Below, one piece after another: positions 1 to 11,598 of a DNA stretch of 64,000 nucleotides; the stretch's first letter is position 1, and each line of letters begins with the position of its first letter. The notes beneath the pieces are model-generated. The model saw nothing but the letters and a program-made list of their open reading frames with translations, did not search any database and was not told where the DNA came from. The stretch is from Candidatus Limnocylindrales bacterium (GTDB taxonomy: Bacteria; Chloroflexota; Limnocylindria; Limnocylindrales; CSP1-4): NCBI GenBank assembly GCA_035692005.1, contig DASSII010000101.1, positions 35,470-99,469 on the forward strand, given 5' to 3'. A program made the translations under genes and the position numbers.

Positions 1-3000
1 TGGGAGCCCATGGCCCGGGCGGTTTCTACGCGCAGGAGTTCTTCCACGACTACACGCCCGGGTACCTGTACGTCCTGTGGGTCGTCGGTGCCGTCGGCAA
101 CGCCTTCGGCGGCGTCGGCGATCTCATCAAGATCCCGCCCATCCTCGCGGACGTCGCGCTTGGCTACGTCGTCTGGTCGATGGTCCGCGAGCTCGGCGGG
201 CGGCCCCGGCTGGCGCTGCTCGGAGCCCTGGTCGTCATGGTCAATCCGATCTTCTGGTTCGACAACGTGGTCTGGGGTCAGGTCGATTCGGTCGGCGTGG
301 TGTTCCTGCTGCTGGGCCTCCGCGGGCTGTGGCGCGACCAGCCGGAGCGGGCGGCCATCTACACCGTGATCGCGGCCATCGTGAAGCCACAGCTCGGCAT
401 CCTGGTGCCGCTGGTCGCGGTCGTGACGATCCGGCGCGCCCTGTGGCCGATCGACGGGGGCACCACCGCGAGCGGCGATCGAGCCGCAGGTCCGCTCGAT
501 CGACTGCGCGCCTGGGAGCGGCGGACCGGTCGTCCGCTGCGCATCGTCAGTACCGGCCTGGCCGGCTTCCTGACCGCCGTCGTCCTGTGCTGGCCGTTCG
601 GACTGTCGGTGCTCGAGCCGACCGGCAGCGCGCCATTCTTCACATCCGGCCTGATCGACCAGATCGTCATCGCCGGCGGCGGCTACCCCTTCCTGACCGT
701 CAATGCCTACAACGCCTGGGCCGTCGTGCCGAGCGATCTCGGGCTCAGCCTCGCCACCTCCGGCCAATGGGTGTGCGATGCCGCCGGGATCGGCCTCGAT
801 CGATGCACGGCGGGCGTCGCCCAGTTCGGGCCCATCCCGGCGGTCGCCGTCGGCGCCGGGCTGCTGGTGGCCGGCATGGTCAGCGTGCTGTGGGTCGCCG
901 CGCGGCGGCCGGACCGGTTGACGCTGCTCGTCGCGTTGGCAGTGCTCGCCCTGGCGTTCTTCGCCTTGCCGACCCGCGTCCATGAGCGGTATGGCTTCCC
1001 GTTCTTCGCGCTCGGGGCGATCCTGTTCGCCGTCTCGCCGCGCTGGCGGGTGGCCTACGTCGTCCTGTCGATCGCCACCTTCGCCAACATGTACGTCGTG
1101 CTCACGACCCTGTATCCGCCGACGGACCCGGCGATCAGTCCGGTGCGGGACTGGCTGGGCATCGGGGAGCTCCTGCGTTCGCCAGCGGGCGTCGCTATCG
1201 TCGCGCTGCTGCATACCGGCGCGTTCCTGTGGGCGTGGCTGCAGCTGCGGGGATCCGCTGCCCGGCGCCTTGCGGCCGAGGTCGTCGCGGCCGCGACCGA
1301 CGCCGCCGGTCCGGTCGCGGGGCTCGATCCGCCGGGGACGAGGCCGCCCGTCGCACTCCCGCCCCGGTCGTCGGTCGCCGGGTTCGCGGCCTCCACCGCG
1401 GCCGCGGCCGTCGCCGTCCCGGTCGCGTCGACGGCCTTCGCCCTGCCGTCGTCGCCACCACTTCCTGCTTCGCGGCCGTCACCGGTGTCGACGCCAGCCC
1501 GTGCGCCAGCGTCAGCGCCGATGTCCGCGCGGATGTCCGCGCCGCCGTCCCGCGCCCGCCCGGCCGCCAGATCGATGCCCAGCTGGTCCGCGCCCCGATC
1601 GTTCATGGAGGCGGGCTGGACCGGCTGGCTGCGCGACCGCCTGACGGAGCGCCCGATCCGGGCCGACCGCAGTCGATCGCTGATCGGCGAAGGCGGTGGT
1701 CGCCTGGACCGAGTCGACGCGTGGTTCCTGGTGGTGCTCATCCTGGTCACGCTCGGGCTGCGCACGTTCCGACTCGCTGAGCCCTACCAGATGCACTTCG
1801 ACGAGGTCTATCACGCGCGGACAGCGACCGAGTTCCTGCAGGACTGGCGGTACGGCCAGTCGCACGACATCTACGAGTGGACCCACCCCCACCTGGCCAA
1901 GTACATCATGGCCGGCGGCATCGCCCTGTGGGGCGCCGACCGTGTCGAGGCGACGAGCGACCTGGCCATCCCGGTCCGGTCGGTGGCGATCGAGCACCGT
2001 CGCGTCGACGCGCTCACCGGCCAGCGGGCCGGCGAACGGCTGCACGTCGCGACGGGCGACGAGATCCGCACGTTCGACCTGCGGACCCGGGCGCTCGTCG
2101 GGGTGACGCCGGCCCCCGGGGCGATCACCCTGACCGTCGATGCCACGGCGGATCGACTCGTGGTCGGCTCGACGGATGGACGGGTCGGGACGGTCGATCT
2201 GGCCTCCATCGGGACCGACGGCATCGCGCCGGGCGGCGCACCGGTGGAGCTGGCCGCGCTTGCGCATCCCGTGACCCACCTGCTGGTCACCGACGACGGG
2301 GCGACCATCCTGGCGGCATCCGACAGCGAACTCGACGCCGTCGACGCCGTCGAAGGGACGATCGTCGGGTCCGTCGAGTTGCCGGGCATCGCCGACCTGT
2401 CGGACGCTGGCACCGGCCCCGCCCTGACGACGACTCCGGGCGCCATCGATGGGCCGGCGGCCGTCGCCTCGACCCTGGCCGACCTCCTCGACGGGGACGC
2501 CGCGGACTACGAGGCCAGGCTGGCGGCGGCGTCGCCCGACGCCACCGTCATCCTCGGCTCACCGGGGAGTGGCGACAAGCGCAAGGCGGTCGAGGCGGCC
2601 ATCGCCGACGGCCGCCTGGCCGGCGTCGAGATCGTGGACCTGCCGCGGGTCGCGGTGGCGACGGCGGACGGCGTGTCGTTCATCGATCCGACGACGGCCG
2701 GCGTGTCCGGCTCGATCGCCATGGAGGGTGGGGCGCACGGCCTGGCCCTGGTGACCGGCATCGACGATCCGAAGCTGTACGTCACGACCGGCAGCGTGGA
2801 CGAGCCCGGGTACGCGGTCATCACCGTCGGCGGCGACGCCGCAGCGAACGGCCCGGTCGATCGGGGTCGCCACCCGCTGCCTGGGCCCGGCACCCGGATC
2901 GCCTACGACGATGCCAGCCAGCAGGTCCATGTCCTCGGCCGGGCGCCGGCCTCGCGCGGTCCCGACGCCGGGTGGACGGTGTACGTCATCGAGCCACACG

Positions 3001-5342
3001 CCAATGCGGTCTACGCGGATGCAGCGCTACCGGCCGGGATGGTCCCGGCGGGCTGGGCGATGGACGTCGAGTCGCAGTACATGACCGACGACCCCGAGCA
3101 GCTGCTCGTCCTTGGCGAGGACGGCCAGAGCGCCTCCATCGACGTCGGCTCGCATGCCTTCGCGTGGCGCCTGCCGGGGGTCATCGCCGGCGTGTTGATG
3201 GCCGTCTGCCTCTACCTGCTGGCTCGCATCCTGTTCCGTCGTCGGCTCGTTGCCGGCTTGACGGCCGCCTTCGTGGTGCTCGACGGCATGTTCTTCGTCC
3301 AGTCGAGGATCGGCATGAACGACGTCTACGTCGGCCTGTTCATCGTCGCCGCCTACGCCCTGTTCGCGGCGGTCTGGACGGGCTGGTGGCGATGGCGTGG
3401 TGCGTTCTGGGTGGCCATGCCCGTCGTCGGCCTGCTGCTCGGGCTGGCACTCGCCTCCAAGTGGGTGGCCGCCTACGCGATCGGCGCGCTGGCCCTGCTG
3501 CTCCTCGTGCGCAGCGCGCTCGGGCGCGTCCTGGCCATCCTCGGTCTGATCGGGATCACCACCGTGCTGGGCTATCTGGCCATCACGCCGGCCGGGGTGG
3601 GCATCGGCAACATCCCGTTCATCACGATCATGGTCGGCCTGACCCTGGTCGCGGTCGTGACCGCCGTGTTCCATCCGATCGCCTGGACCGACGACGAGAC
3701 CCGGTTGGCTGTATTCGCCCCGATCGTGGCCGCCGCGGCCGTCATCGTCGGGGCGCTCGCGACCGGCCATCTCCGGACCGCCGTGGCCGTGGGACCGGTC
3801 ACCATCACACCCCTCGTCGTCGCACTCGTGCTCGCGCTCGGGTCCGTCCTGGCGTACGCAGCGTTCCGGATCGGCGGCTGGCTCGGCTACGGGCCGTTCG
3901 CCGACCGGTCGCGGCCGGCCGACTCGATGACCGGCCTGCCGTCGGTGGAGCCGCCGGCGGCCGCACCGACCGGCTGGTTGCGGCCCGGCTGGTTCGTCGG
4001 CGTACCGATGATCTGGGCGGCCCTGAGCCTGGTTGCCATCCCCGTGGTGGTGTACGTCGCGAGCTACCTGCCGTGGGCGGCGATCGAGAATCACCAGCTC
4101 TGGGCGGGCGTCCCGGCGGGCCACACCGGTCAGACCCTGGTCCAGCTGACCGGCCAGATGTACGCCTACCACAACGGCCTCGATTCGCCCCATCCGGCGT
4201 CGTCGCCGTGGTGGGCGTGGCCGTTCGATCTCAAGCCGGTGTGGTTCTACCAGGAGGGGTTCGCGGCCGGCACGAGCGCAGCGATCTACGATGCGGGCAA
4301 CCTCGTCATCTGGTGGTTCGGCATCATCGGGCTCGGGTTCGCGGCGGTCATGGCCTTCCGTCGGCGAAGCCTGGCGCTGGCGCTGATCACCATCGGTTTC
4401 GCTGCCCAGTGGGTGTCGTGGGCGCGGATCGACCGGGCGGCGTTCCAATACCACTACTACACCGCTCTGCCGTTCCTCGTGCTCGCCCTGGCCTACCTGG
4501 TCGCCGAGTTGTGGCACGGTGCCGCGCGGCGGACATGGCTGGTGGCCCGTGCCGCGGCCGCGCTCGCCATCGTCGCCCCGGCCGCGTTGTGGCTGTTCGC
4601 GCGGCCGCTGTGCGGGCTCGTCGGGGTCACGATCGTGAACCCGGGCTCGGCAGCCTGCCCGGCGGTCATCCCTGACTTCGTCGTGAGCGTCCGCTCGCTG
4701 GCACTGCTCGGTGTCATGGCGGTCGGGGCCGTCGTACTCGCTCGCGGCCTTCTCGCCCTGGGGCGCAACGCGGACGACGCGCCGTCGGAGACGCGGGCGA
4801 TGGGCCGCGAGGTCATCGCGGCGAGTGCCGTGGCCATCGGCATCGTCGTGGCCGCGCTGTTGCCCGACAGTGCGATCGTGACCTGGACGGGCATCCCGGT
4901 CGAACCGATCGCCCTCATCGTGGCCTTGCCCCTGCTCTATCTGGCGGGCCAGGTCTTCGCGGCCCGCGACGCGCGGCGGTTCGTGGTCGGCCTGCTCGTC
5001 GCCGTCGCGGCCTGGTTCGTGGTGTGGTATCCGAACATCGCCGCGGTGCCGTTGCCGTCGACCATGGTGAATGCCTACCAGGGTCTGTTGCCGACCTACC
5101 TCTACGCGTTCCAGTTCCCGGTCAACAACGTGGCGCGACCAAGCACGAGCCTGTTCGGCCCGACACTCGTCCTGCTGGGCATCGCCATCGCGGTGACCTG
5201 TCTCGTGGTCGCCTACTCGGCGTCGGTCTGGCGCTCGGCGCTGGCCGAGTCGCCGGCCGATGCCGGTGCCGCGGCCGGCTCGAGCGATGGCTCGGCCAGC
5301 GGCTCGGACGGCCTGGCCCGGACCGGCGGGGGCGGCGCCTGA
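1..5342 (+). CDS. 5'-truncated giant integral-membrane GT-C glycosyltransferase: GT87/DUF2029-like N-terminal domain fused to a PMT/GT39-like domain, a beta-propeller-like soluble region and a Pro/Ala/Ser-rich linker
   Basis: The frame continues upstream of ORF 180..5342 to base 3 with no stop ('GYLYVLWVVGAVGNAFGG...NPIFWFDNVVWGQVDS', GT87-like). It contains the PMT DE-loop motif 'HFDEVYHARTATEFLQDW...HPHLAKY'. Many TM helices are present. Residues ~440-560 are a low-complexity P/A/S linker. The last hydrophobic third resembles the PMT C-terminus ('YHNGLDSPHPASSPWWAWPFDLKPVWFYQEG'). Confidence 0.7.
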   Translation, partial: GAHGPGGFYAQEFFHDYTPGYLYVLWVVGAVGNAFGGVGDLIKIPPILADVALGYVVWSMVRELGGRPRLALLGALVVMVNPIFWFDNVVWGQVDSVGVVFLLLGLRGLWRDQPERAAIYTVIAAIVKPQLGILVPLVAVVTIRRALWPIDGGTTASGDRAAGPLDRLRAWERRTGRPLRIVSTGLAGFLTAVVLCWPFGLSVLEPTGSAPFFTSGLIDQIVIAGGGYPFLTVNAYNAWAVVPSDLGLSLATSGQWVCDAAGIGLDRCTAGVAQFGPIPAVAVGAGLLVAGMVSVLWVAARRPDRLTLLVALAVLALAFFALPTRVHERYGFPFFALGAILFAVSPRWRVAYVVLSIATFANMYVVLTTLYPPTDPAISPVRDWLGIGELLRSPAGVAIVALLHTGAFLWAWLQLRGSAARRLAAEVVAAATDAAGPVAGLDPPGTRPPVALPPRSSVAGFAASTAAAAVAVPVASTAFALPSSPPLPASRPSPVSTPARAPASAPMSARMSAPPSRARPAARSMPSWSAPRSFMEAGWTGWLRDRLTERPIRADRSRSLIGEGGGRLDRVDAWFLVVLILVTLGLRTFRLAEPYQMHFDEVYHARTATEFLQDWRYGQSHDIYEWTHPHLAKYIMAGGIALWGADRVEATSDLAIPVRSVAIEHRRVDALTGQRAGERLHVATGDEIRTFDLRTRALVGVTPAPGAITLTVDATADRLVVGSTDGRVGTVDLASIGTDGIAPGGAPVELAALAHPVTHLLVTDDGATILAASDSELDAVDAVEGTIVGSVELPGIADLSDAGTGPALTTTPGAIDGPAAVASTLADLLDGDAADYEARLAAASPDATVILGSPGSGDKRKAVEAAIADGRLAGVEIVDLPRVAVATADGVSFIDPTTAGVSGSIAMEGGAHGLALVTGIDDPKLYVTTGSVDEPGYAVITVGGDAAANGPVDRGRHPLPGPGTRIAYDDASQQVHVLGRAPASRGPDAGWTVYVIEPHANAVYADAALPAGMVPAGWAMDVESQYMTDDPEQLLVLGEDGQSASIDVGSHAFAWRLPGVIAGVLMAVCLYLLARILFRRRLVAGLTAAFVVLDGMFFVQSRIGMNDVYVGLFIVAAYALFAAVWTGWWRWRGAFWVAMPVVGLLLGLALASKWVAAYAIGALALLLLVRSALGRVLAILGLIGITTVLGYLAITPAGVGIGNIPFITIMVGLTLVAVVTAVFHPIAWTDDETRLAVFAPIVAAAAVIVGALATGHLRTAVAVGPVTITPLVVALVLALGSVLAYAAFRIGGWLGYGPFADRSRPADSMTGLPSVEPPAAAPTGWLRPGWFVGVPMIWAALSLVAIPVVVYVASYLPWAAIENHQLWAGVPAGHTGQTLVQLTGQMYAYHNGLDSPHPASSPWWAWPFDLKPVWFYQEGFAAGTSAAIYDAGNLVIWWFGIIGLGFAAVMAFRRRSLALALITIGFAAQWVSWARIDRAAFQYHYYTALPFLVLALAYLVAELWHGAARRTWLVARAAAALAIVAPAALWLFARPLCGLVGVTIVNPGSAACPAVIPDFVVSVRSLALLGVMAVGAVVLARGLLALGRNADDAPSETRAMGREVIAASAVAIGIVVAALLPDSAIVTWTGIPVEPIALIVALPLLYLAGQVFAARDARRFVVGLLVAVAAWFVVWYPNIAAVPLPSTMVNAYQGLLPTYLYAFQFPVNNVARPSTSLFGPTLVLLGIAIAVTCLVVAYSASVWRSALAESPADAGAAAGSSDGSASGSDGLARTGGGGA

Positions 5343-6493
5343 GGCACGGCCGCGTGGAAGCCGTCGGGGAGCGCCTCGGCGGCGGCCAGTCGCCGGATGA
5401 CGAAGCCGTAGTAGTCGTCTACCTTGGCCGTGACCCGCGGCCAGCTGAATTCCTCGGCCCGGGCACGCCCGGCGGCACCCATCCGCTCGCGCATGTCGGG
5501 GTCGCTCAGGACGCGGTCGATGGCGACCGCCAGCTCCCGCGGCGAGCGAGGCGGCACGAGCAGACCCTCGCGCCCGCGCCGGACCACCCCCTTGTAGCCG
5601 TGGATGTCCGAACAGACGATCGGCGTGCCGGCGGCCATCGCCTCGAGCAGGACGATCCCGAACGACTCGCCGCCGGTGGCCGGGGAGGCGTACACGTCGG
5701 CGGTCCGGAACAACTGGGCCTTCTCCGTGTCGGACACGCGGCCGAGGAACTCCACCCCCTGCAGCCCGCGGGTGGCGACGTAGCGCCGTGCCTCGCGCTC
5801 CTGGGGCCCGGAGCCCACGACGAGAAGCCGCTGCTGGGAGCCGGTCTTGCGCAGGATACGGTGGGCCTTGAGCAGGTCGAGCAGGCCCTTGCGCGGCTCG
5901 TGGCGGCCGACGAACAGGACATTGGGCGTGCCGTCCTGCCAGCGCGCGATCGGTACCGCGTTGGCGAAGCGGGGCACGTCGACGCCATTGGGGATGACCT
6001 TGTAGTCGCCGGGGAAGAACCGGTCGATGAAGTGGCGGGCGGCGGCGCTGACCGCGATGCGGCCGTGCAGCCGGCCGGCGTAGCCTCGCAACGCCCGACT
6101 GCCGAACTCGTACGACGGCGAAAAGCCGGCGTAGGCGTGGAACGTGGCGATGTTGACGCTGTTCGACTCACGCAGCAGGAACAACGACAGGAACGGCACG
6201 AACGGCTCGTGGAAATGCAGCAGGTCGAACTGCTCGCGCTCGAGCATCCGGCCGATCTGGCTCAGGTAGCGGGGCGAGAACGTCAGCGTGCCGACCGACG
6301 CGTTGATCGGTACCGAGAAGCCGACCCCGAGGCGGATGATGTCGCCCTCCGAGGCCCGCTGCGGGCCGTGGCTGGCGGTCAGGATGCGGACGTCGTGCCC
6401 GCGCAGGCGGAGGTTCTCGTAGAGGTAGCGCACGTGTTGCGCGACGCCGCCGTTGTCGGGGTAGATGTAGGGACAGACGAGACCGATCTTCAT
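5213..6493 (-). CDS. pimA: GDP-mannose-dependent phosphatidylinositol alpha-mannosyltransferase PimA (GT4)
   Basis: 'MKIGLVCPYIYPDNGGVAQHV...FHEPFVP...GRIAVSAAARHF...IPNGVDV...GGESFGIVLLEAMAAGTPIVCSD' is near-collinear with mycobacterial PimA. The ATG at 6493 overlaps the TGA of the upstream gene (ATGA). A 60-aa P/A-rich C-terminal tail overlaps the convergent gene's end. Confidence 0.85.
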   Translation of the reverse strand: MKIGLVCPYIYPDNGGVAQHVRYLYENLRLRGHDVRILTASHGPQRASEGDIIRLGVGFSVPINASVGTLTFSPRYLSQIGRMLEREQFDLLHFHEPFVPFLSLFLLRESNSVNIATFHAYAGFSPSYEFGSRALRGYAGRLHGRIAVSAAARHFIDRFFPGDYKVIPNGVDVPRFANAVPIARWQDGTPNVLFVGRHEPRKGLLDLLKAHRILRKTGSQQRLLVVGSGPQEREARRYVATRGLQGVEFLGRVSDTEKAQLFRTADVYASPATGGESFGIVLLEAMAAGTPIVCSDIHGYKGVVRRGREGLLVPPRSPRELAVAIDRVLSDPDMRERMGAAGRARAEEFSWPRVTAKVDDYYGFVIRRLAAAEALPDGFHAAVPQAPPPPVRARPSEPLAEPSLEPAAAPASAGDSASAERQTDAE

Positions 6494-7314
6494 CGCCCAT
6501 CCTCGTCTCGGTCGAAGCGCGGCGGCCGGGCGCGACCGCCGGGATAGCCGTGATCGCGACCGGTGCCGGATCGACGGACCCGCCCGACCACCTCGTCGCG
6601 CGCATCGATGGCCCGCTTGCGAAGCTGCCGACCGAACACCCCGACCTGCCCGGTCGTGCCGTGGAACGAGCCACCGTGGTCGGTCCGGCCGGCCGCGATC
6701 GCCACCCGCAGGTCCGCCGCGGTCCGCCCCTCGAACGTGGTCCAGCCCGACCCGATCGCGGCGAGCGCGTGGGCGTCGCTGTTCCCGACGTGGGCGAGTC
6801 CGTGGCGATCGGCGAACCGCACGACACGATCGTGCCACGGCCGTCCGAGCGCCGTCGGGTTGAACGTCTCGAGCGCATCCGGGTGGACAGCCGGATCCGG
6901 GTCGTCGAGGAGCCGTCGCAGGACCCATCCCTGCGCGCACAACGGGTAGGGCACCAGCGGATGCGCCGGGATGGCGATGCCCCCCGCGGCATGGACGTCG
7001 GCGATCGTGGTCCGCAGCGTCCGATAGGGGCGGATCGGCCGGTCGATGTACAGCGCCAGCAGGTGACCGCCGAGCGTGGTGACCTCCTCGCCGACGACCA
7101 CCTCGACCGCCAATCCCCGGTCGAGCGCCAGCGCCCGGCCCGCCAGCGCCGCGTCGACGCGCTCGTGGTCGGTGATGGCGATGACATCGAGCGTCGGGTC
7201 CGCCGCCGCACGCTCGATGATCGACACGACGTCGGCGGTGCCGTCCGAAGCGACCGTGTGGATATGCAGGTCCGCCCGGCCGGAGCGCACGCCGCTGACC
7301 GTCGGGCCGCTCAC
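6490..7314 (-). CDS. PHP-domain metal-dependent phosphoesterase (TrpH/YciV-like); candidate phosphatidylinositol-phosphate phosphatase by operon context
   Basis: It carries the PHP motif 'DLHIHTVASDGT' and a His-rich fold ('ITDHERV', 'HPLVPYP', 'NSDAHAL'). The GTG start at 7314 overlaps the upstream TGA (GTGA), and the stop overlaps the pimA ATG. Confidence 0.75.
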   Translation of the reverse strand: MSGPTVSGVRSGRADLHIHTVASDGTADVVSIIERAAADPTLDVIAITDHERVDAALAGRALALDRGLAVEVVVGEEVTTLGGHLLALYIDRPIRPYRTLRTTIADVHAAGGIAIPAHPLVPYPLCAQGWVLRRLLDDPDPAVHPDALETFNPTALGRPWHDRVVRFADRHGLAHVGNSDAHALAAIGSGWTTFEGRTAADLRVAIAAGRTDHGGSFHGTTGQVGVFGRQLRKRAIDARDEVVGRVRRSGTGRDHGYPGGRARPPRFDRDEDGR

Positions 7315-8246
7315 GTCGCTGGCTCGAGGTCCGGCCAGATCGGGAAGAACACCGCCCACCACTGCTCCGGCGCGTCCTCGACGATCCGCTCGAAGGCGCG
7401 GGCGATCGCGCTCGTCAGCACGGTCGCGCGCTCGCGCCTGGATCCTGCGCCGGCGTCCGCGATCGGCTCTGCGCGTCCGATGTAGTGCCGGCCCGCGACG
7501 CGTCGCACGCCGACGACGTACAGCGGCGCGCCTGTTTCGATGGCGAGCAGGGCCGGACCGAGGGGCAGCCTGGCTGGCGCCCCGAACAGCTCGGTCAGGA
7601 CGCCGCCGCCGGTCAGGTCGCGGTCACCGACCAGGCCGACGGCACTGCCCGACCGGAGCGCGCCGGTCAGTTCGCGGCGGGCCTCGCGCAGTCCGACGAT
7701 GCGCACACCGGCCGCGCCACGGGTGCGCACCATCCAGTCCTGCACGGTCGGATCGGCGATGGTCTCCATCGGTGCCACGGCTCCGCCGGCACGCGCCGCA
7801 AGGTACAGCGCCGGTAACTCGATGGCGCCGAAGTGGAGACCGACGAAGATCGACGCCCGACCGGGCGCGAACGCGCCCTCGACCACGTCGGGCGTCTCGA
7901 TGGAGACGAGCCGATCGAGATCCGCGACGCCCAGCGCCGGCGTGCGCGCGACCTCGAGGTAATAGCGCGCCGCGTGCCGGTAGGCGAGCCGGACCATCCG
8001 TTCGAGCGCCCGTGGGTCGGCCGCCGCAGCGCGAGCCAGCGGCGTCCCGCGATCATGGGCGGCCAGCCAGCCGACGACGCGCTCGAGGTTCTGACGAGCC
8101 CGGGCGGCGCGGTCGGGCGTGGCGCGATACCAGACGTCCCCGGCCGACTCGGCCAGGGTCACGAGCGGACGCTCGGGCAGCCGACAGGCCAGCCACGACA
8201 GCGCCACCAGGAGTCGACCGCGAACGAGCCCCGCCACGCGGGCCAC
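7311..8246 (-). CDS. patA: HtrB/LpxL-family lysophospholipid acyltransferase (PatA-like, PIM acyltransferase)
   Basis: It has an LPLAT/lipid A lauroyl-acyltransferase-like fold ('RYYLEVAR...GLHFGAIELPALYLA...GLVGDRDLTGGGV'). Its position matches mycobacterial Rv2611c between pgsA1 and pimA. The GTG start is at 8246. Confidence 0.8.
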   Translation of the reverse strand: MARVAGLVRGRLLVALSWLACRLPERPLVTLAESAGDVWYRATPDRAARARQNLERVVGWLAAHDRGTPLARAAAADPRALERMVRLAYRHAARYYLEVARTPALGVADLDRLVSIETPDVVEGAFAPGRASIFVGLHFGAIELPALYLAARAGGAVAPMETIADPTVQDWMVRTRGAAGVRIVGLREARRELTGALRSGSAVGLVGDRDLTGGGVLTELFGAPARLPLGPALLAIETGAPLYVVGVRRVAGRHYIGRAEPIADAGAGSRRERATVLTSAIARAFERIVEDAPEQWWAVFFPIWPDLEPAT

Positions 8247-8248
8247 GG

Positions 8249-9295
8249 TCAGGCGAACTCCGGCGCCGGCCCCGGATCCGGCTGACCCGCCTGCATCATC
8301 GTCGCGCGCCGCTCCAGGTCGGCCGCCTCATCCTCGGTCGCCGGCCACAGCGGCTTGAAGCTGTACCACTGGTCGGGCGCCGCAGCGATCGTCGAGGCCA
8401 GCGCGTCGGCCATCGCCTGCGTCGCGCGCTGGAGCTCGGCCGGGTCGGATGAAGCGAGATCGATCGGCTCGGGGAACGTGACCAGGAACGTGTCATCGGG
8501 GCGACGCCGGATGGTGATCGGCAGGATCCGCGAGCCGGTCTTGGCCGCGAGGGTGGCCGGGCCGGCGGGCAGCGTCGTCCACGAGCCGAACAGGCGCACC
8601 GGGATGCCGTCCGAGCGGTAGCCCCAATCGACGAGGAGGGCCAGCATCTCCTTGCGTCGGAGCACCCCGAAGATCTCGCGCAGATTTCGCCAGGCGATGA
8701 TCCGGACGCCCCACGATTCGCGTTGGCGGCGCAGGATCTCGAAGATCTCGGGGAATGACGAATCGTCGGCGACCACGCTGATCGGCATGTCGTGGCGCGC
8801 GATCGCCGCGGCCACCGCCTCGTTGTTGCCGACATGTCCGACGGTGAAGATGAGCCCGCCGCCCCCGGGCGCGGCACGCCACAGTCGCTTGATCTCGTCG
8901 GCGTCGATGTCGGGGACCATCTCGGCCACCTCGGCCGGAGGCAGCGACGGCAGGCGCATCAGCTCGACGAGGTAGCGGCCATAGCCGCGGTACGCCCGCA
9001 GCGCCTCCTGGCGCACCTTCGGATGATCCGGATGCAGGCCGAGCACGTTGGCGAAGTTGCGGTTCGACCAGCGGCGCTTGGTCGGCCAGGCGAGGTACGA
9101 CAGCTGGGAAGCCCTGCCGATGACCGCAGCGGCCGGTTTCGGCGGCAGGCTGGCCAGCAACCACGACGTCGCCCGGAAGCCGGCTACCGCCAGGCGCTCG
9201 ACGACGCGAGGGCTATCGCCCCCGCGTCGATGCGGTGCCTCGAGCCGTCGTTCGCCGGCGCTCGGACCGGTCCGTGGCTTGTCGCCTGCGGTCAC
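8249..9295 (-). CDS. Second HtrB/LpxL-family acyltransferase (PatA paralogue)
   Basis: It is acyltransferase-like ('[34 protein letters not shown]'; the N-terminus resembles PatA). The GTG at 9295 overlaps the ino1 TGA (GTGA). Confidence 0.75.
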
Positions 9296-10539
9296 TGCGC
9301 CGCGGCGGTGGCGACCTTCGCCCTGGAACCGGCAAGCTTGCGCAGCTTTCGGGCGACGGGCTTCTCCGTTCCGACGAGCGTCTCGGAGTCGTCACCCCGG
9401 ATGAACGCCTCGACGCGGTTGAACGCGATGTCGTCGTGGATCTGCTGCGGCGGCGACTTCATGAAGTAGGCCGACGGAGCCACGAGCGTGCCCTTCAGGC
9501 CGCGATCGAGGCCGAGCTTCAGGCAGCGGATCGCGTCGGTGATGACGCCGGCGCTGTTGGGGCTGTCCCAGACCTCGAGCTTGAGCTCGGCGTTGAGCGG
9601 GACGTCGCCGTAGGTCGTGCCCTCCATCCGGATGTAGCACCACTTGCGATCGAGCAGCCACGGCACGTGATCGCTCGGACCGACGTGGACGTCGTCGGGA
9701 TCGAGCTCGTAGTCGAGCATCGAGGTCACCGCGTTCGTCTTGCTGATCTTCTTGGACTCGAGGCGCTCCCGCTCGAGCATGTTGAGGAAGTCGGTGTTGC
9801 CACCGAAGTTGAGCTGGTACGTGCGGTCCAGCCGGACTCCGCGATCCATGAACAGGCGGGTCAGCACCCGGTGGCTGATGGTCGCGCCGACCTGGCTCTT
9901 GATGTCGTCGCCGATGACCGGCAGCCCGGCGTCCGCGAAGCGGCGTTGCCAGTACGGCTCGCGACCGATGAACACCGGGATGGCATTGACGAACGCCACA
10001 CCGGCGGCCAGCGCCTGCTCGGCGTACCACTTGGTCGCCTCCTCGCTGCCGACCGGCAGGTAGGAGACCATGACGTCGACCTCGCGCTCCTTGAGGATGC
10101 CGACGATGTCGGCCGTCTCGCCCGGGGCCTTCTCGATGATCTGGCTGAGGTACTTGCCGAGACCGTCGTGGACCATGCCACGCTCGACCGTCACGCCGGT
10201 CTTCTGGACCTGCTGGAAGACGTACGTGTTGTTCGGCTTGGTGTAGATCGCCTCGGACAAGTCCTTGCCGACCTTGTTCTTGTCGATGTCGAAGGCGGCC
10301 ACGAAGTCGATGTCGCGGATGTGATAGCCACCGAGGTTGACGTGCATCAGCCCGGGGACGAAGTCGTCATCGTTGGCGTTCTCGTAGTAATAGCGGCCCT
10401 GCACGAGGCTGCTGGCGCAGTTCCCCACGCCGACGATGGCGACGCGGATCTTGCCATCGCCGCGACGACCGGCGCCGGCCCAGGTGTTGGTCGGCGTCGC
10501 GCCGTCGTTGCCGCTGCCGTTGCTTCCGTTCTTGCTCAC
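9292..10539 (-). CDS. ino1: myo-inositol-1-phosphate synthase
   Basis: Rossmann motif '[18 protein letters not shown]', plus '[25 protein letters not shown]' and '[13 protein letters not shown]', typical of bacterial/archaeal Ino1. The ATG at 10539 overlaps the pgsA TGA (ATGA). Confidence 0.9.
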
Positions 10540-11198
10540 TGTGGTCTCCGTTGCTCCTGATCCGTTGGGCTGGTGATGGCTGACTGTTGCCTGGCTTGAC
10601 GGCGGACGTGGACGATCCGCTGGATGACGGTGATGGTCGCGCCGACGGCGATGATCCCGAGCGCGAACTCGAGCGCCTTGATCTCCGGCTCGGCGGCGAG
10701 GATGAGGCCGACGGTGAGGATCACGAGGCGGACCTCGCGGGGCATGAGCCCGACTGCCGCCATCCCCGTCCCGCTGCTGAATCCGAGGCCCTCGGCCTTG
10801 GCCCGGATGTAGCTGACCATGAAGGCGGCGCCCATGGCCGTGGCCGCCAGGACCGGCACGCGCGTGTGGCCGCCGACGGATGCGCCGACGACGATGGCGA
10901 TGTAGACGGCCGCTTCACCCCACCGATCGAAGACCGAGTCCATGAACGCGCCGAGCCGACTGACCTTGCCCGTCGCTCGCGCGAGCGTCCCGTCGAACAT
11001 GTCGAAGATGCCGCCGGCCAGGACGATGATGCCGCCCAGCGCCCAGTGCTGGAGGGCGAGCAATCCGGCGCCGCCGACGGTGATGGCGAAACCGATCAGC
11101 GTGAGCGCATCGGGGGTCAGCCCGAGCCGGCCCATGCCGACCGCGATGGGCTCGAAGGCATGCTTGACGCGGTCACGCGCGTCGTTGGACAGGGTCAT
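10536..11198 (-). CDS. pgsA: CDP-alcohol phosphatidyltransferase (phosphatidylinositol-phosphate synthase PgsA1-like)
   Basis: CDP-OH phosphatidyltransferase motif '[30 protein letters not shown]' with 6 TM helices, 221 aa. The ATG at 11198 shares 1 nt with the ArsR stop. The ORF-track start at 11570 is R-rich junk. Confidence 0.85.
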
Positions 11199-11536
11199 CA
11201 GCTGGCGATACCGAGGCCGAGGATGGCCCGCTCGCGTTCGGCGACCTCGCCGAACGCCTCGGGTCGCAGCGTGCAGATCGTCTCGCGGCCGACGCGCCGC
11301 GTCTCGATGAGCCCGGCGACCCGGAGTCGCTTGAGGTGATGGCTGACGAGCGGTTGCGAGAGCCCGACATGCGCGATCAGCGCCGCGACGCTGGCCTCGC
11401 CATCGGCCAGCCGACGGACGATGCGCAGTCGATTGACGTCCGCGAGGGCCTTGTGGAACGCCCGCAGTTCGCGCAGGTCCTCGGGCTGGAGGACGATCGA
11501 CGCGAGCGTGGACCGGAACCGGGCTGGGGATGGCAC
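11198..11536 (-). CDS. ArsR/SmtB-family HTH transcriptional regulator
   Basis: 'LADVNRLRIVRRLADGEASVAALIAHVGLSQPLVSHHLKRLRVAGLIE' is a typical ArsR wHTH. It is divergent from the MFS gene. The exact start is uncertain. Confidence 0.75.
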   Translation of the reverse strand: MPSPARFRSTLASIVLQPEDLRELRAFHKALADVNRLRIVRRLADGEASVAALIAHVGLSQPLVSHHLKRLRVAGLIETRRVGRETICTLRPEAFGEVAERERAILGLGIAS

Positions 11537-11564
11537 AGGTGGGGATGGACTCCGGGGGATGTCG

Positions 11565-11598
11565 TATCAACGGCGGTTGATATCAACGGATGTTGATG
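11565..11598. promoter_or_regulatory. Tandem palindromic operator TATCAAC-GGCG-GTTGATATCAAC-GGAT-GTTGAT in the ArsR/MFS divergent intergenic region
   Basis: Two adjacent 6-4-6 inverted repeats (ATCAAC-N4-GTTGAT) share a central palindrome GTTGATATCAAC. They lie between ArsR (start 11536, −) and MFS (start 11683, +). Confidence 0.45.

What the first reader, a model, noticed from the sequence alone, without database searches (positions are those of the whole stretch)
1..5342. Polyprenol-phosphate-sugar glycosyltransferase of more than 1780 aa fusing GT87/DUF2029-like and PMT/GT39-like modules, convergent on the PIM operon
The 5'-truncated frame encodes a GT87/PimE-like N-terminal membrane module, then a long Pro/Ala/Ser low-complexity linker, then a PMT-like module carrying the DE-loop 'HFDEVYHARTATEFLQDWRYG'. 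A soluble beta-strand-rich region follows ('LVVGSTDGRVGTVDL...YVTTGSVDEPGYAVITVGG') and then a second large polytopic domain. Both families use polyprenol-P-mannose donors. Fusing a PimE-type and a Pmt-type enzyme in one polypeptide, next to pimA, is unusual. The linker region also contains nucleotide-level direct repeats (for example 'gatgtccgcgc' twice at about 1517–1545).
Basis: partly seen in the sequence, partly recalled or inferred. Interest (0 to 1): 0.55.

Follow-up and report, generated by a model that had tools for sequence, protein, structure and literature searches.

The report
Single-chain PMT–GT87–propeller glycosyltransferase
This is one real, conserved giant membrane enzyme of Chloroflexota (class Limnocylindria) that joins in a single chain a PimE/ALG6-like glycosyltransferase, a protein-O-mannosyltransferase-like glycosyltransferase and a beta-propeller, the same three parts that a 2026 preprint reports as separate subunits of the mycobacterial protein-mannosylation complex.

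Summary
Window 3..5342 (+) is one stop-free frame of 1780 codons. It is cut at the window edge; a 99.7%-identical metagenome protein gives the full 1852 aa. It is not an assembly artefact: at least 62 of 80 species-representative Limnocylindria genomes carry the same uninterrupted ORF, and GC3 periodicity runs through the linker.

There are two GT-C modules, not three.
- Module 1 folds like ALG6/PimE. Its Pfam GT87 hit is borderline.
- A variable, Arg-rich linker of about 155 aa follows.
- Module 2 is a GT39/PMT-type enzyme (Pfam PMT plus PMT_4TMC). Its first external loop, just after the DE motif, is interrupted by a 400-aa seven-bladed beta-propeller. Five extra TM helices follow the core.

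Candidate catalytic residues of both modules are invariant across 62 species. In one divergent relative the two modules are adjacent genes with overlapping stop and start.

The neighbouring convergent operon really is PIM-like, with a PimA-like GT4. However, the whole 25-kb region is syntenic, so the adjacency proves little.

Best reading: a single-chain equivalent of the Pmt–GT87–propeller complex, driven by polyprenyl-phosphate sugar. This is a new variant of a known kind; interest 0.6.

The parts
3..1241 (+). Module 1: GT-C glycosyltransferase module (ALG6/PimE-like, borderline Pfam GT87). It is 5'-truncated by the window edge; 73 residues are missing, including TM1 and the loop with invariant D62.
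   Evidence: Pfam GT87 27 bits against cut-off 25. AF2 model of the full module: pLDDT 84.6, pTM 0.87. Foldseek top hits: ALG6 6snh (E 7e-6, TMq 0.63), PimE 9dm5 (E 6.5e-5), Gpi14, PIG-U, ALG3. Invariant D62, D89, D123, D160, D168, K201, Q203, R398, H400, E401, R402 and Y403 (P0001 numbering) in 62 species.
1242..1709 (+). Low-complexity Pro/Ala/Ser/Arg linker between the two GT-C modules. It is inferred to be cytoplasmic.
   Evidence: Column identity is 8-33% over the central linker, P0001 481-600, rising to about 60% near the PMT module, against 50-86% elsewhere. Length ranges from 73 to 150 aa across species. There are 19 R+K against 9 D+E. pLDDT is below 50 at both model ends. GC3 periodicity is kept.
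1511..1556 (+).
1710..1943 (+). Module 2, N-terminal part: PMT TM1 plus the two juxtamembrane helices of external loop 1, with the catalytic DE motif (FDEVYHAR, nt 1797-1820) and THPHLAKY.
   Evidence: Aligns to the DE region of yeast Pmt4 and C. thermophilum Pmt4 (VFDEVHFGKFA) and to Pfam PMT positions 6-63. D and E are invariant in 63 of 63 sequences.
1944..3143 (+). Seven-bladed (7 x 4 strands) WD40-like beta-propeller inserted in external loop 1 of the PMT module.
   Evidence: AF2 block pLDDT is mostly 80-96, with 28 strands in 7 groups of 4. The top Foldseek matches are all beta-propellers: Rsa4, NLE1, Tup1, G-beta, RACK1 (TMt 0.77), BamB. There are weak WD-repeat sequence hits (Utp17, WDR18, ERB1). 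No Pfam family matches. Length is 391-412 aa in 62 species.
2433..2663 (+). Alpha/beta subdomain inserted in propeller blade 4, carried on a long beta-hairpin.
   Evidence: DSSP of the model shows E247-259, three helices and one strand, then E324-336. The profile matches the N-terminal domain of a class B PBP (4ovd res 70-164, E 2.9e-4). The subdomain is missing in divergent relatives P0150, P0152, P0156 and P0161.
3144..4625 (+). Module 2, core: PMT TM2 to TM11, with the EL2 motif RIGMND (nt 3306-3323), HPASSPWW (4191-4214) and RIDRAAFQYHYY (4425-4460).
   Evidence: Pfam PMT 39.7 bits (cut-off 22.7) at window aa 1052-1169 and PMT_4TMC 57.6 bits (cut-off 32.4) at aa 1378-1537. PDB sequence hits to Pmt4 (E 1.8e-4 to 8.7e-6). 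R1175, D1180, H1470, R1551 and F1554 are invariant.
4626..5258 (+). C-terminal extension of about five more TM helices and two beta-hairpins beyond the canonical PMT core (motifs YPNI and YAFQFP). Function unknown.
   Evidence: AF2 helices 1012-1198 of the model. No Pfam hit. Conserved as the 'tail' segment in all complete relatives.
5259..5342 (+). Low-complexity C-terminal tail and stop codon. It lies within the 130-nt tail-to-tail overlap (5213-5342) with the 3' end of the convergent pimA-like gene.
   Evidence: The same overlap of 130-139 nt appears in the gene calls of relatives.
5213..6493 (-). PimA-like GT4 glycosyltransferase; last gene of the convergent PIM-type operon.
   Evidence: 214 bits, E 4e-62, full length, to M. 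smegmatis PimA (2gej, 4n9w). The next hit, PimB', scores 82 bits. Pfam Glycos_transf_1 and Glyco_transf_4 match.
6490..11570 (-). Rest of the PIM-type operon: PHP-domain phosphoesterase (6490-7362), two PatA-like acyltransferases (7311-8246, 8249-9295), inositol-3-phosphate synthase (9292-10539) and a PIP-synthase-like CDP-alcohol phosphatidyltransferase (10536-11570; this ORF is probably over-extended at its 5' end).
   Evidence: Pfam. The best NCBIfam hits are all below their curated cut-offs: 'phosphatidylinositol mannoside acyltransferase' at 123 and 142 bits (cut-off 209), 'phosphatidylinositol phosphate synthase' at 133 bits (cut-off 170), and mycothiol_INO1 at 536 bits (cut-off 638). 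Same order in relatives.

Best explanation
The gene encodes a single-chain glycosyltransferase complex of about 1850 aa that acts on the outer face of the membrane and depends on polyprenyl-phosphate sugar (most likely mannose).

Module 2 is a GT39/PMT-type transferase. Its catalytic Asp-Glu lies in external loop 1. In the same loop, 48 residues downstream, a seven-bladed beta-propeller is inserted. It is expected to sit over the active site and to select or gate the acceptor, most likely secreted or membrane proteins that are O-mannosylated on Ser/Thr.

Module 1 is an ALG6/PimE-like GT-C domain. It is tethered through a disordered linker, inferred to be cytoplasmic, and is expected to pack beside module 2 as a pseudo-heterodimer. 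This would resemble yeast Pmt1-Pmt2 and the mycobacterial Pmt-Rv0051 pair. Because module 1 keeps an invariant Asp at the start of its first juxtamembrane helix, plus invariant Lys, His and Arg residues, it probably performs a second transfer. That transfer could be elongation of the O-linked mannose, as PimE does in mycobacteria, and/or mannosylation of a PI-anchored glycolipid.

Shown here: the fusion, the domain order, the folds, and the conservation of the motif residues.
Inferred: the donor sugar, the protein acceptor, the packing of the modules, the position of the propeller over the active site, and the activity of module 1.
For: 1. One conserved ORF.
2. Module 2 passes both Pfam models that define the PMT core (definition in PMC12331936 section 6). 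It keeps the residues shown to be essential in M. tuberculosis PMT: the DE motif, the Rx4D Asp of EL2, and an Rx2[F/Y] in the PMT_4TMC region (PMC12331936 section 8).
3. The insert is a confidently modelled beta-propeller placed between the EL1 juxtamembrane helices and TM2.
4. Module 1 folds like ALG6 and PimE and has invariant D62, K201, H400 and R402.
5. bioRxiv 10.64898/2026.07.15.738315 (section 14) reports, with AlphaFold models, correlated knock-down phenotypes and a Pmt-3xFLAG pull-down, that mycobacterial Pmt works with a GT87-like protein and a periplasmic beta-propeller positioned over the Pmt active site. It also notes Paenibacillus GT39 enzymes fused to a GT87 enzyme. The protein here contains all three components.
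6. In a 43%-identical relative with the same synteny (L083), module 1 and module 2 are separate genes whose stop and start overlap by 11 nt (ATGGAGACTGA). This is the fused-versus-split pattern expected of obligate partners.
7. PimE is reported to elongate O-mannose chains in mycobacteria (PMC12757957).
8. In relatives, a polyprenyl-phosphate-sugar-synthase-type GT2 lies three genes upstream of the fusion gene, on the opposite strand. Its nearest solved homologues are ArnC, GtrB and DPMS.
Against: - No acceptor or donor can be read from sequence.
- Module 2 scores only 21-26 bits against NCBI's bacterial Pmt equivalog model (cut-off 800), so it is not an orthologue of the characterised actinobacterial enzyme.
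- The GT87 assignment of module 1 is borderline.
- The mycobacterial partner Rv0051 is described as catalytically dead, whereas module 1 looks intact, so the parallel is incomplete.
- The mycobacterial propeller is eight-bladed and a separate protein, so homology with this seven-bladed insert is untested.
- I could not model the full-length chain (1200-aa limit), so the packing of the modules and the position of the propeller are inferred.
- The mycobacterial complex rests on a single recent preprint.
Confidence: 0.55

Rival explanations
1. Bifunctional lipoglycan synthase. Both GT-C modules extend the phosphatidylinositol-mannoside made by the adjacent PimA operon into a higher PIM or lipomannan-like lipoglycan on the outer face of the membrane. 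The propeller would bind the growing glycan.
For: - The PIM-type operon lies directly downstream and overlaps the 3' end. This arrangement is kept in nearly all loci long enough to show it.
- No PimB'-like second cytoplasmic GT is seen in the operon, so later steps must be done elsewhere.
- The characterised GT87 enzyme PimE is a glycolipid mannosyltransferase (PMC12041525).
- Two more GT-C genes and a polyprenyl-P-sugar synthase sit upstream in relatives.
Against: - The genes are convergent, not co-transcribed.
- The entire region from dnaN to CorA is syntenic across the clade, so the adjacency is not specific.
- The characterised enzymes matching the PMT and PMT_4TMC models are protein O-mannosyltransferases (PMC12331936).
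- The GT39 + GT87 + propeller combination matches the protein-mannosylation complex reported in mycobacteria.
Confidence: 0.25
2. PMT holoenzyme with a non-catalytic partner. Module 1 is only a scaffold or acceptor-recruiting pseudo-enzyme, as proposed for mycobacterial Rv0051/ML2687c and in part for yeast Pmt2. Only module 2 transfers sugar.
For: The preprint (10.64898/2026.07.15.738315) describes the GT87-like partner of Pmt as lacking catalytic residues yet important for activity. Fusion or operonic coupling is equally expected for a structural partner.
Against: Module 1 is as conserved as module 2. It keeps an invariant Asp (D62) just after TM1, at the start of the first juxtamembrane helix, plus D89, D160, D168, K201, H400, E401 and R402 in 62 species at 48-69% identity. 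Purely structural pseudo-enzymes usually lose such residues.
Confidence: 0.15
3. Artefact. Two neighbouring genes were joined by a mis-assembly or a frameshift error in the GC-rich, low-complexity linker.
For: About 8 of 80 related loci show a frame change, five of them in the linker. One divergent relative has two genes.
Against: - The same uninterrupted ORF occurs in at least 62 independent species-level assemblies from many projects and in more than 120 protein clusters of 1750-1860 aa.
- There is a near-identical independent contig.
- GC3 phase is continuous.
- Frame changes in the minority also fall inside modules, and most of them come from long-read MFD MAGs.
Confidence: 0.02

Closest known systems
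Mycobacterial protein-O-mannosylation complex: Pmt (Rv1002c, GT39) + GT87-like Rv0051/ML2687c + beta-propeller Rv3212/ML0810c + DivIVA-like Rv1209 (bioRxiv 10.64898/2026.07.15.738315)
   Same: It has the same three kinds of component: a GT39 catalytic core with a DE motif, a GT87-like GT-C partner, and an extracytoplasmic beta-propeller associated with the loop that carries the active site.
   Different: Here all three are one polypeptide, and the propeller is an insertion in external loop 1 rather than a separate protein. The propeller has seven blades rather than eight. The GT87-like module keeps its conserved acidic and basic residues instead of having lost them. No DivIVA-like component was identified. 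There is an extra five-TM C-terminal extension. The phylum is Chloroflexota, not Actinomycetota. Homology of the propellers and of module 1 with Rv0051 was not testable here.
Paenibacillus GT39 enzymes translationally fused to a GT87-family enzyme (UniProt V9WAU2, mentioned in the same preprint)
   Same: Translational fusion of a GT39 and a GT87-type GT-C domain.
   Different: That sequence could not be retrieved here, so its domain order and the presence of a propeller are unknown to me. The preprint does not mention a propeller.
Yeast Pmt1-Pmt2 and Pmt4 protein O-mannosyltransferases (PDB 6p25, 9e61)
   Same: PMT and PMT_4TMC core, DE motif in loop 1, a dimer of two GT-C subunits, and a soluble lumenal domain capping the active site.
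   Different: The partner here is not a second PMT but an ALG6/PimE-like module. The soluble domain is a beta-propeller in loop 1, not a MIR beta-trefoil in the later lumenal loop that carries it in the eukaryotic enzymes. Sequence similarity is low (22-29 bits to Pmt4).
PimE (GT87; PDB 9dm5; PMC12041525) and ALG6 (GT57; PDB 6snh)
   Same: Module 1 shares the GT-C fold (Foldseek E 6.5e-5 and 7e-6). It has an Asp in the first external loop and conserved Lys and His residues at positions comparable with PimE K195 and H322.
   Different: The Pfam GT87 score is borderline and ALG6 is the better structural match. Residue equivalence with PimE D58, K195 and H322 was not established by alignment. Module 1 is never free-standing in this clade.

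Membership tests
GT39 / PMT protein O-mannosyltransferases | [quoted passage not shown] | tested here: met
   PMT 39.7 bits (cut-off 22.7) and PMT_4TMC 57.6 bits (cut-off 32.4). The PMT match is split by the propeller: profile positions 6-63 come before it and 82-198 after it.
GT39 / PMT protein O-mannosyltransferases | Asp-Glu motif in external loop 1, upstream of the first juxtamembrane helix (MtPMT D74-E75) | tested here: met
   FDEVYHAR aligns with VFDEVHFGKFA of Pmt4. D673 and E674 are invariant in 63 of 63 sequences. The helix starts at the motif in the model.
GT39 / PMT protein O-mannosyltransferases | Second essential Asp in external loop 2 (Rx4-6D; MtPMT D176) | tested here: met
   RIGMND: R1175 and D1180 are invariant. 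The motif lies inside the Pfam PMT match, and its R and D pair with the R and D of 'TRLILLD' in Pmt4. That alignment is weak on its own (domain 2).
GT39 / PMT protein O-mannosyltransferases | Rx2[Y/F] motif in the late external loop (MtPMT R441/Y444) | tested here: inconclusive
   R1551-A-A-F1554 followed by QYHYY is invariant and lies inside the PMT_4TMC match. The PDB alignments stopped before it, so equivalence rests on position only.
GT39 / PMT protein O-mannosyltransferases | Orthology with the characterised bacterial Pmt (NCBIfam NF058602 equivalog) | tested here: not met
   21-26 bits against a cut-off of 800.
GT39 / PMT protein O-mannosyltransferases | Transfers mannose from polyprenyl-phosphate-mannose to Ser/Thr of proteins | not testable with these tools
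   Needs biochemistry or genetics.
GT87 (PimE-type mannosyltransferases) | Pfam GT87 (PF09594) above the gathering score | tested here: inconclusive
   26.8-27.0 bits against a cut-off of 25, covering only profile positions 28-123 of 237. Only 2 of 120 relatives carry a precomputed PF09594 hit.
GT87 (PimE-type mannosyltransferases) | GT-C fold matching PimE | tested here: met
   Foldseek 9dm5: E 6.5e-5, TMt 0.55. ALG6 (GT57) matches better: E 7.4e-6, TMq 0.63.
GT87 (PimE-type mannosyltransferases) | Catalytic Asp on the first juxtamembrane helix (PimE D58), and Lys/His that hold the phosphate (K195, H322) (PMC12041525) | tested here: inconclusive
   Candidates D62, K201 and H400 are invariant and lie in the expected loops of the model. 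No residue-level alignment with PimE could be obtained: there was no PimE hit in the PDB sequence searches.
Mycobacterial-type Pmt complex (GT39 + GT87-like + beta-propeller) | Physical association of a GT39 enzyme with a GT87-like GT-C protein | tested here: met
   Covalent fusion in at least 62 species. Adjacent genes with overlapping stop and start in L083.
Mycobacterial-type Pmt complex (GT39 + GT87-like + beta-propeller) | Beta-propeller positioned over the Pmt active site | tested here: inconclusive
   A propeller is present and inserted 48 residues after the DE motif, in the same loop. Blade number is 7 rather than 8, and homology to Rv3212 was not tested.
Mycobacterial-type Pmt complex (GT39 + GT87-like + beta-propeller) | GT87-like partner lacks catalytic residues | tested here: not met
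   Module 1 keeps invariant D62, D89, D160, D168, K201, H400, E401 and R402.
PIM early-pathway operon (neighbouring genes) | PimA (GDP-Man:PI alpha-1,2-mannosyltransferase) | tested here: met
   214 bits, E 4e-62, residues 1-363 against 21-381 of M. smegmatis PimA. The next hit, PimB', scores 82 bits.
PIM early-pathway operon (neighbouring genes) | PIP synthase, inositol-3-phosphate synthase and PatA-type acyltransferase | tested here: inconclusive
   The best NCBIfam hits are exactly these families, but all fall below the curated cut-offs: 133 against 170, 536 against 638, and 123 and 142 against 209. The Pfam domains are clear.

The most novel reading that the evidence does not exclude
Limnocylindria (Chloroflexota) possess an actinobacterial-type envelope glycobiology consisting of PimA-initiated phosphatidylinositol mannosides plus protein O-mannosylation. 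Their ~1850-aa protein would be a natural single-chain form of the whole Pmt complex in which both GT-C active sites work. Initiation (GT39) would then be coupled to elongation or to PI-glycolipid mannosylation (PimE-like module) under one propeller-gated entry. That would give independent evolutionary proof of the recently proposed mycobacterial Pmt-GT87-propeller complex, and a ready-made single-particle target for solving it.
Probability: 0.35. Interest if true: 0.75.

Novelty: new variant of a known kind. Interest (0 to 1): 0.6.

Why it matters
1. It would be a fused-versus-split ('Rosetta-stone') confirmation, from a different phylum, of a complex between Pmt, a GT87-like protein and a beta-propeller. 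So far that complex rests on one preprint. Fusion in at least 62 species, and operonic coupling in a relative, argue that these parts work together.

2. A single polypeptide holding the whole assembly would be an attractive cryo-EM and biochemical target. The mycobacterial enzyme is described as hard to isolate (PMC12331936).

3. Module 1 keeps its conserved charged residues. This raises the testable idea that the ancestral partner was an active second transferase that later decayed to a scaffold in mycobacteria.

4. Together with the PimA operon, it suggests that PIM-type glycolipids and PMT-type glycosylation are not confined to Actinomycetota. My literature searches found nothing describing this for Chloroflexota.

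Tried and rejected
- **Assembly or frameshift artefact:** rejected.
- **'Three modules' reading:** rejected, because the Pfam PMT match is split around the soluble region.
- **Fold search of the module 2 model:** only beta-propellers appeared in the top 50, so it gave no structural confirmation of the PMT core. The PMT assignment rests on Pfam and on PDB sequence matches.
- **PDB sequence and profile searches:** they did not reach PimE or ALG6, so no residue-level mapping of module 1 was possible.
- **hhalign of the family profile against the neighbouring 484-aa weak-GT87 protein:** uninformative.
- **Representative search:** the top 150 were mostly family members and fragments. Apparent free-standing 'PMT+propeller' proteins P0122 and P0140 share 90% clusters with mates of 1798 and 2127 aa, so they are probably truncated gene calls. 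Only L083 looks like a genuine split.
- **Pfam on long variants P0208, P0142 and P0161:** did not identify their extra regions.
- **Other scans:** no tRNA, Rfam family, promoter-like or terminator-like site near the gene end.
- **Synteny as evidence for a link to the PIM operon:** down-weighted, because all flanking genes are equally conserved.
- **NCBIfam on module 1:** no hit.
Full report
**Observation**

Window nt 3-5342 (+) is a single open frame of 1780 codons ending in TGA. It is cut by the window edge. A JGI metagenome protein, P0001 (1852 aa), matches the window protein at 1774 of 1779 residues and supplies the missing 73 N-terminal residues: TM1 and the loop 'PGSGFEADLTSFRFW'. The DNA is 69-75% GC. 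Codon position 3 has the highest GC (0.80-0.98) in every 150-nt window, including the Pro/Ala/Ser linker. There is no stop and no phase change in the linker. It belongs to an in-frame 12-nt tandem repeat at 1511-1556, which is a trivial low-complexity feature.

**Is the fusion real?**

A search of 5.8 billion proteins returned more than 120 clusters of 1750-1860 aa, most covering the whole query at 59-85% identity. The few that carry an organism name are Chloroflexota or Candidatus Limnocylindrales MAGs, apart from one labelled Methylomirabilota.

A scan of one genome per GTDB species found at least 591 loci encoding a relative. The best 80 are almost all labelled Chloroflexota, mostly Limnocylindria/Limnocylindrales, with two MAGs labelled otherwise. 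In 62 of them a single stop-free ORF of at least 1650 codons holds both modules, at 48-69% identity to P0001. About eight loci have a frame change. Five of these lie in the linker and the others inside a module, and most come from MFD long-read MAGs, so they look like errors. The artefact explanation is therefore rejected.

**Anatomy**

Pfam finds PMT (39.7 bits) at window aa 1052-1169 and PMT_4TMC (57.6 bits) at aa 1378-1537. The stretch with the DE motif (aa about 580-645) matches PMT profile positions 6-63. Yeast and Chaetomium Pmt4 align at the DE region and in the PMT_4TMC region. The PMT module is therefore split. TM1 and the first external loop with 'FDEVYHAR' lie before the soluble region, and TM2 onwards lies after it. 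There are two GT-C modules, not three.

- **Module 1.** An AlphaFold2 model of P0001 1-520 (66-sequence alignment) has pLDDT 84.6 and pTM 0.87. Foldseek against the PDB gives ALG6 (E 7e-6, TMq 0.63), PimE (E 6.5e-5), Gpi14, PIG-U and ALG3. Pfam GT87 is just above threshold (27 against 25 bits), over 95 of 237 positions, and NCBIfam finds nothing.
- **Module 2.** The model of window nt 1656-5255 (1200 aa) has pLDDT 78. Residues 97-496 form 28 strands in seven groups of four, with block pLDDT mostly 80-96. The top 50 Foldseek matches shown are all WD40-type or BamB-type propellers.
- **Subdomain.** An alpha/beta subdomain sits on a long hairpin in blade 4. In a profile search it weakly resembles the N-terminal domain of a class B PBP (E 2.9e-4).
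- **C-terminal extension.** After the PMT_4TMC region come about five further TM helices with no Pfam match.
- **Linker.** It is about 155 aa, poorly conserved (8-33% column identity over its central part), 73-150 aa long in relatives, and has 19 R+K against 9 D+E. PimE has both termini in the cytoplasm (PMC12041525) and the N-terminus of PMT is cytoplasmic (PMC12757957). The linker is therefore inferred, not shown, to be cytoplasmic.

**Catalytic residues**

Across 62 species the following are invariant or nearly so (P0001 numbering):
- Module 1: D62 (61 of 62), D89, D123, D160, D168, K201, Q203, R398, H400, E401, R402, Y403.
- Module 2: D673/E674 (DE), R1175 and D1180 (RIGMND, an Rx4D motif), H1470, and R1551 and F1554 (RAAF).

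The module 2 set corresponds to the residues shown by mutagenesis to be essential in M. tuberculosis PMT: D74, D176, and R441/Y444 (PMC12331936). The first two correspondences are supported by alignment. The third is supported by position only. For module 1, D62 lies just after TM1 at the start of the first juxtamembrane helix, which is the canonical place for the GT-C catalytic Asp (PMC12331936; PMC12041525). I could not obtain a residue-level alignment with PimE.

**Context**

Downstream on the minus strand, overlapping the 3' end by 130 nt, lies an operon. In window order, from the end nearest the fusion gene:
- a GT4 that matches M. smegmatis PimA over its full length (214 bits; the next hit, PimB', scores 82 bits);
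- a PHP-domain phosphoesterase;
- two acyltransferases whose best NCBIfam hit is the PIM acyltransferase;
- inositol-3-phosphate synthase;
- a PIP-synthase-like enzyme.

In relatives, the genes upstream of the fusion gene are a polyprenyl-phosphate-sugar-synthase-type GT2 (nearest solved homologues ArnC, GtrB and DPMS), a TMEM260-like GT-C, and a 484-aa protein with a sub-threshold GT87 hit.

The whole stretch from dnaN through DciA, rhomboid and BFN to the MFS and CorA genes is syntenic in the clade, and the fusion gene is convergent with the PIM operon. The adjacency is therefore conserved but not specific evidence of a shared pathway.

**Wider family**

An exhaustive HMMER search of 1.84 billion cluster representatives with module 2 gave 4047 hits at E ≤ 1e-3 and 660 at E ≤ 1e-30. 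Mapping my own HMMs of the five segments onto the top 150 shows the same order (module 1, PMT-N, propeller, PMT core, tail) in all complete members. Variants of 1500-2390 aa either lack the alpha/beta subdomain or carry extra sequence between the modules.

Two apparently free-standing module 2 proteins share clusters with mates of 1798 and 2127 aa, so they are probably truncated calls.

One relative looks truly split (L083, 43% identity, identical synteny). A 702-aa gene matches the module 1 HMM at E 5e-111 and keeps 'GFPND' and 'RAHERY'. It ends in a TGA that overlaps by 11 nt the ATG of a 1439-aa PMT+propeller gene.

**Comparison with what is known**

A July 2026 preprint (10.64898/2026.07.15.738315, section 14) reports that mycobacterial Pmt (GT39) forms a complex with three partners:
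- a GT87-like protein (Rv0051/ML2687c), described as lacking catalytic residues;
- an eight-bladed periplasmic beta-propeller (Rv3212/ML0810c) placed directly over the Pmt active site;
- a small DivIVA-like protein.

The preprint likens the arrangement to yeast Pmt1-Pmt2 with its MIR domains. It notes that some Paenibacillus GT39 enzymes are fused to a GT87 enzyme. A 2025 review states that PimE (GT87) elongates O-mannose chains (PMC12757957).

The protein in this window contains a GT39 core, a GT87/ALG6-like partner and a beta-propeller attached to the catalytic loop, all in one chain. That is the most economical explanation of its architecture.

It differs in five ways:
- the propeller is inserted into loop 1 and has seven blades;
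- the partner module looks catalytically intact;
- there is an extra C-terminal TM bundle;
- the organism is a Chloroflexota;
- it is not an orthologue of the characterised bacterial Pmt (21-26 bits against a cut-off of 800).

Literature searches found no description of this family, and none of PIM genes in Chloroflexota.

**Verdict**

Most likely (0.55) this is a single-chain PMT-type holoenzyme driven by polyprenyl-phosphate sugar, with a propeller gate and a probably active PimE/ALG6-like second module. The main rival (0.25) is a lipoglycan synthase acting on the neighbouring operon's PI-mannoside; a variant in which module 1 is only a scaffold gets 0.15. It is a new variant of a known kind, with interest 0.6.

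Noticed in passing
window 5213-11570 (-): A complete early PIM-type operon in a Chloroflexota genome: PIP-synthase-like enzyme, inositol-3-phosphate synthase, two PatA-like acyltransferases, a PHP phosphoesterase and a PimA-like GT4. PimA similarity is 214 bits over the full length. My literature searches found no report of PIM genes in Chloroflexota.
   Followed up: partly
window 6490-7362 (-): A PHP-domain metallo-phosphoesterase sits inside the PIM-type operon in nearly all related loci long enough to show it. It is a candidate for the phosphatase step that converts PI-phosphate to PI. That role is my speculation and was not tested.
   Followed up: no
window 5213-5342: The convergent fusion gene and the pimA-like gene overlap tail-to-tail by 130 nt, both in low-complexity C-terminal tails. 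The same 130-139-nt overlap appears in gene calls of relatives, and the fusion protein's last residues (DGLARTGGGA) are conserved.
   Followed up: partly
window 2433-2663 (+): An alpha/beta subdomain inserted in blade 4 of the propeller weakly resembles the N-terminal (non-catalytic) domain of a class B penicillin-binding protein (4ovd, E 2.9e-4). It is absent from divergent family members.
   Followed up: partly
window 4626-5258 (+): There are about five extra TM helices and two beta-hairpins after the canonical PMT core. They are conserved (YPNI, YAFQFP) but match no family.
   Followed up: no
L001 6225-9968 (-), upstream of the fusion gene in relatives (outside the window): Divergently transcribed trio: a polyprenyl-phosphate-sugar-synthase-type GT2, a TMEM260-like GT-C, and a 484-aa protein with a sub-threshold GT87 hit. 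With the fusion gene, four GT-C modules are clustered with a lipid-linked sugar donor synthase.
   Followed up: partly
L083 5903-12320 (+): In a 43%-identical relative the two modules are separate genes whose stop and start overlap by 11 nt (ATGGAGACTGA). This suggests translational coupling rather than fusion.
   Followed up: partly
P0208, P0142, P0161 (family members): Longer variants (2012-2390 aa) carry about 100-900 extra residues between the modules or after the tail. These regions have no Pfam match.
   Followed up: partly
window about nt 774-806 (P0001 C331 and C341): Two invariant cysteines lie in the large loop of module 1 between TM helices. The loop is probably external and the cysteines probably form a disulfide.
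   Followed up: no
L005, L013, L024, L035, L026, L043, L044, L078: Single-base frame changes break the gene in several MFD long-read MAGs. Automatic annotation of these genomes will therefore show it as two or three genes.
   Followed up: partly
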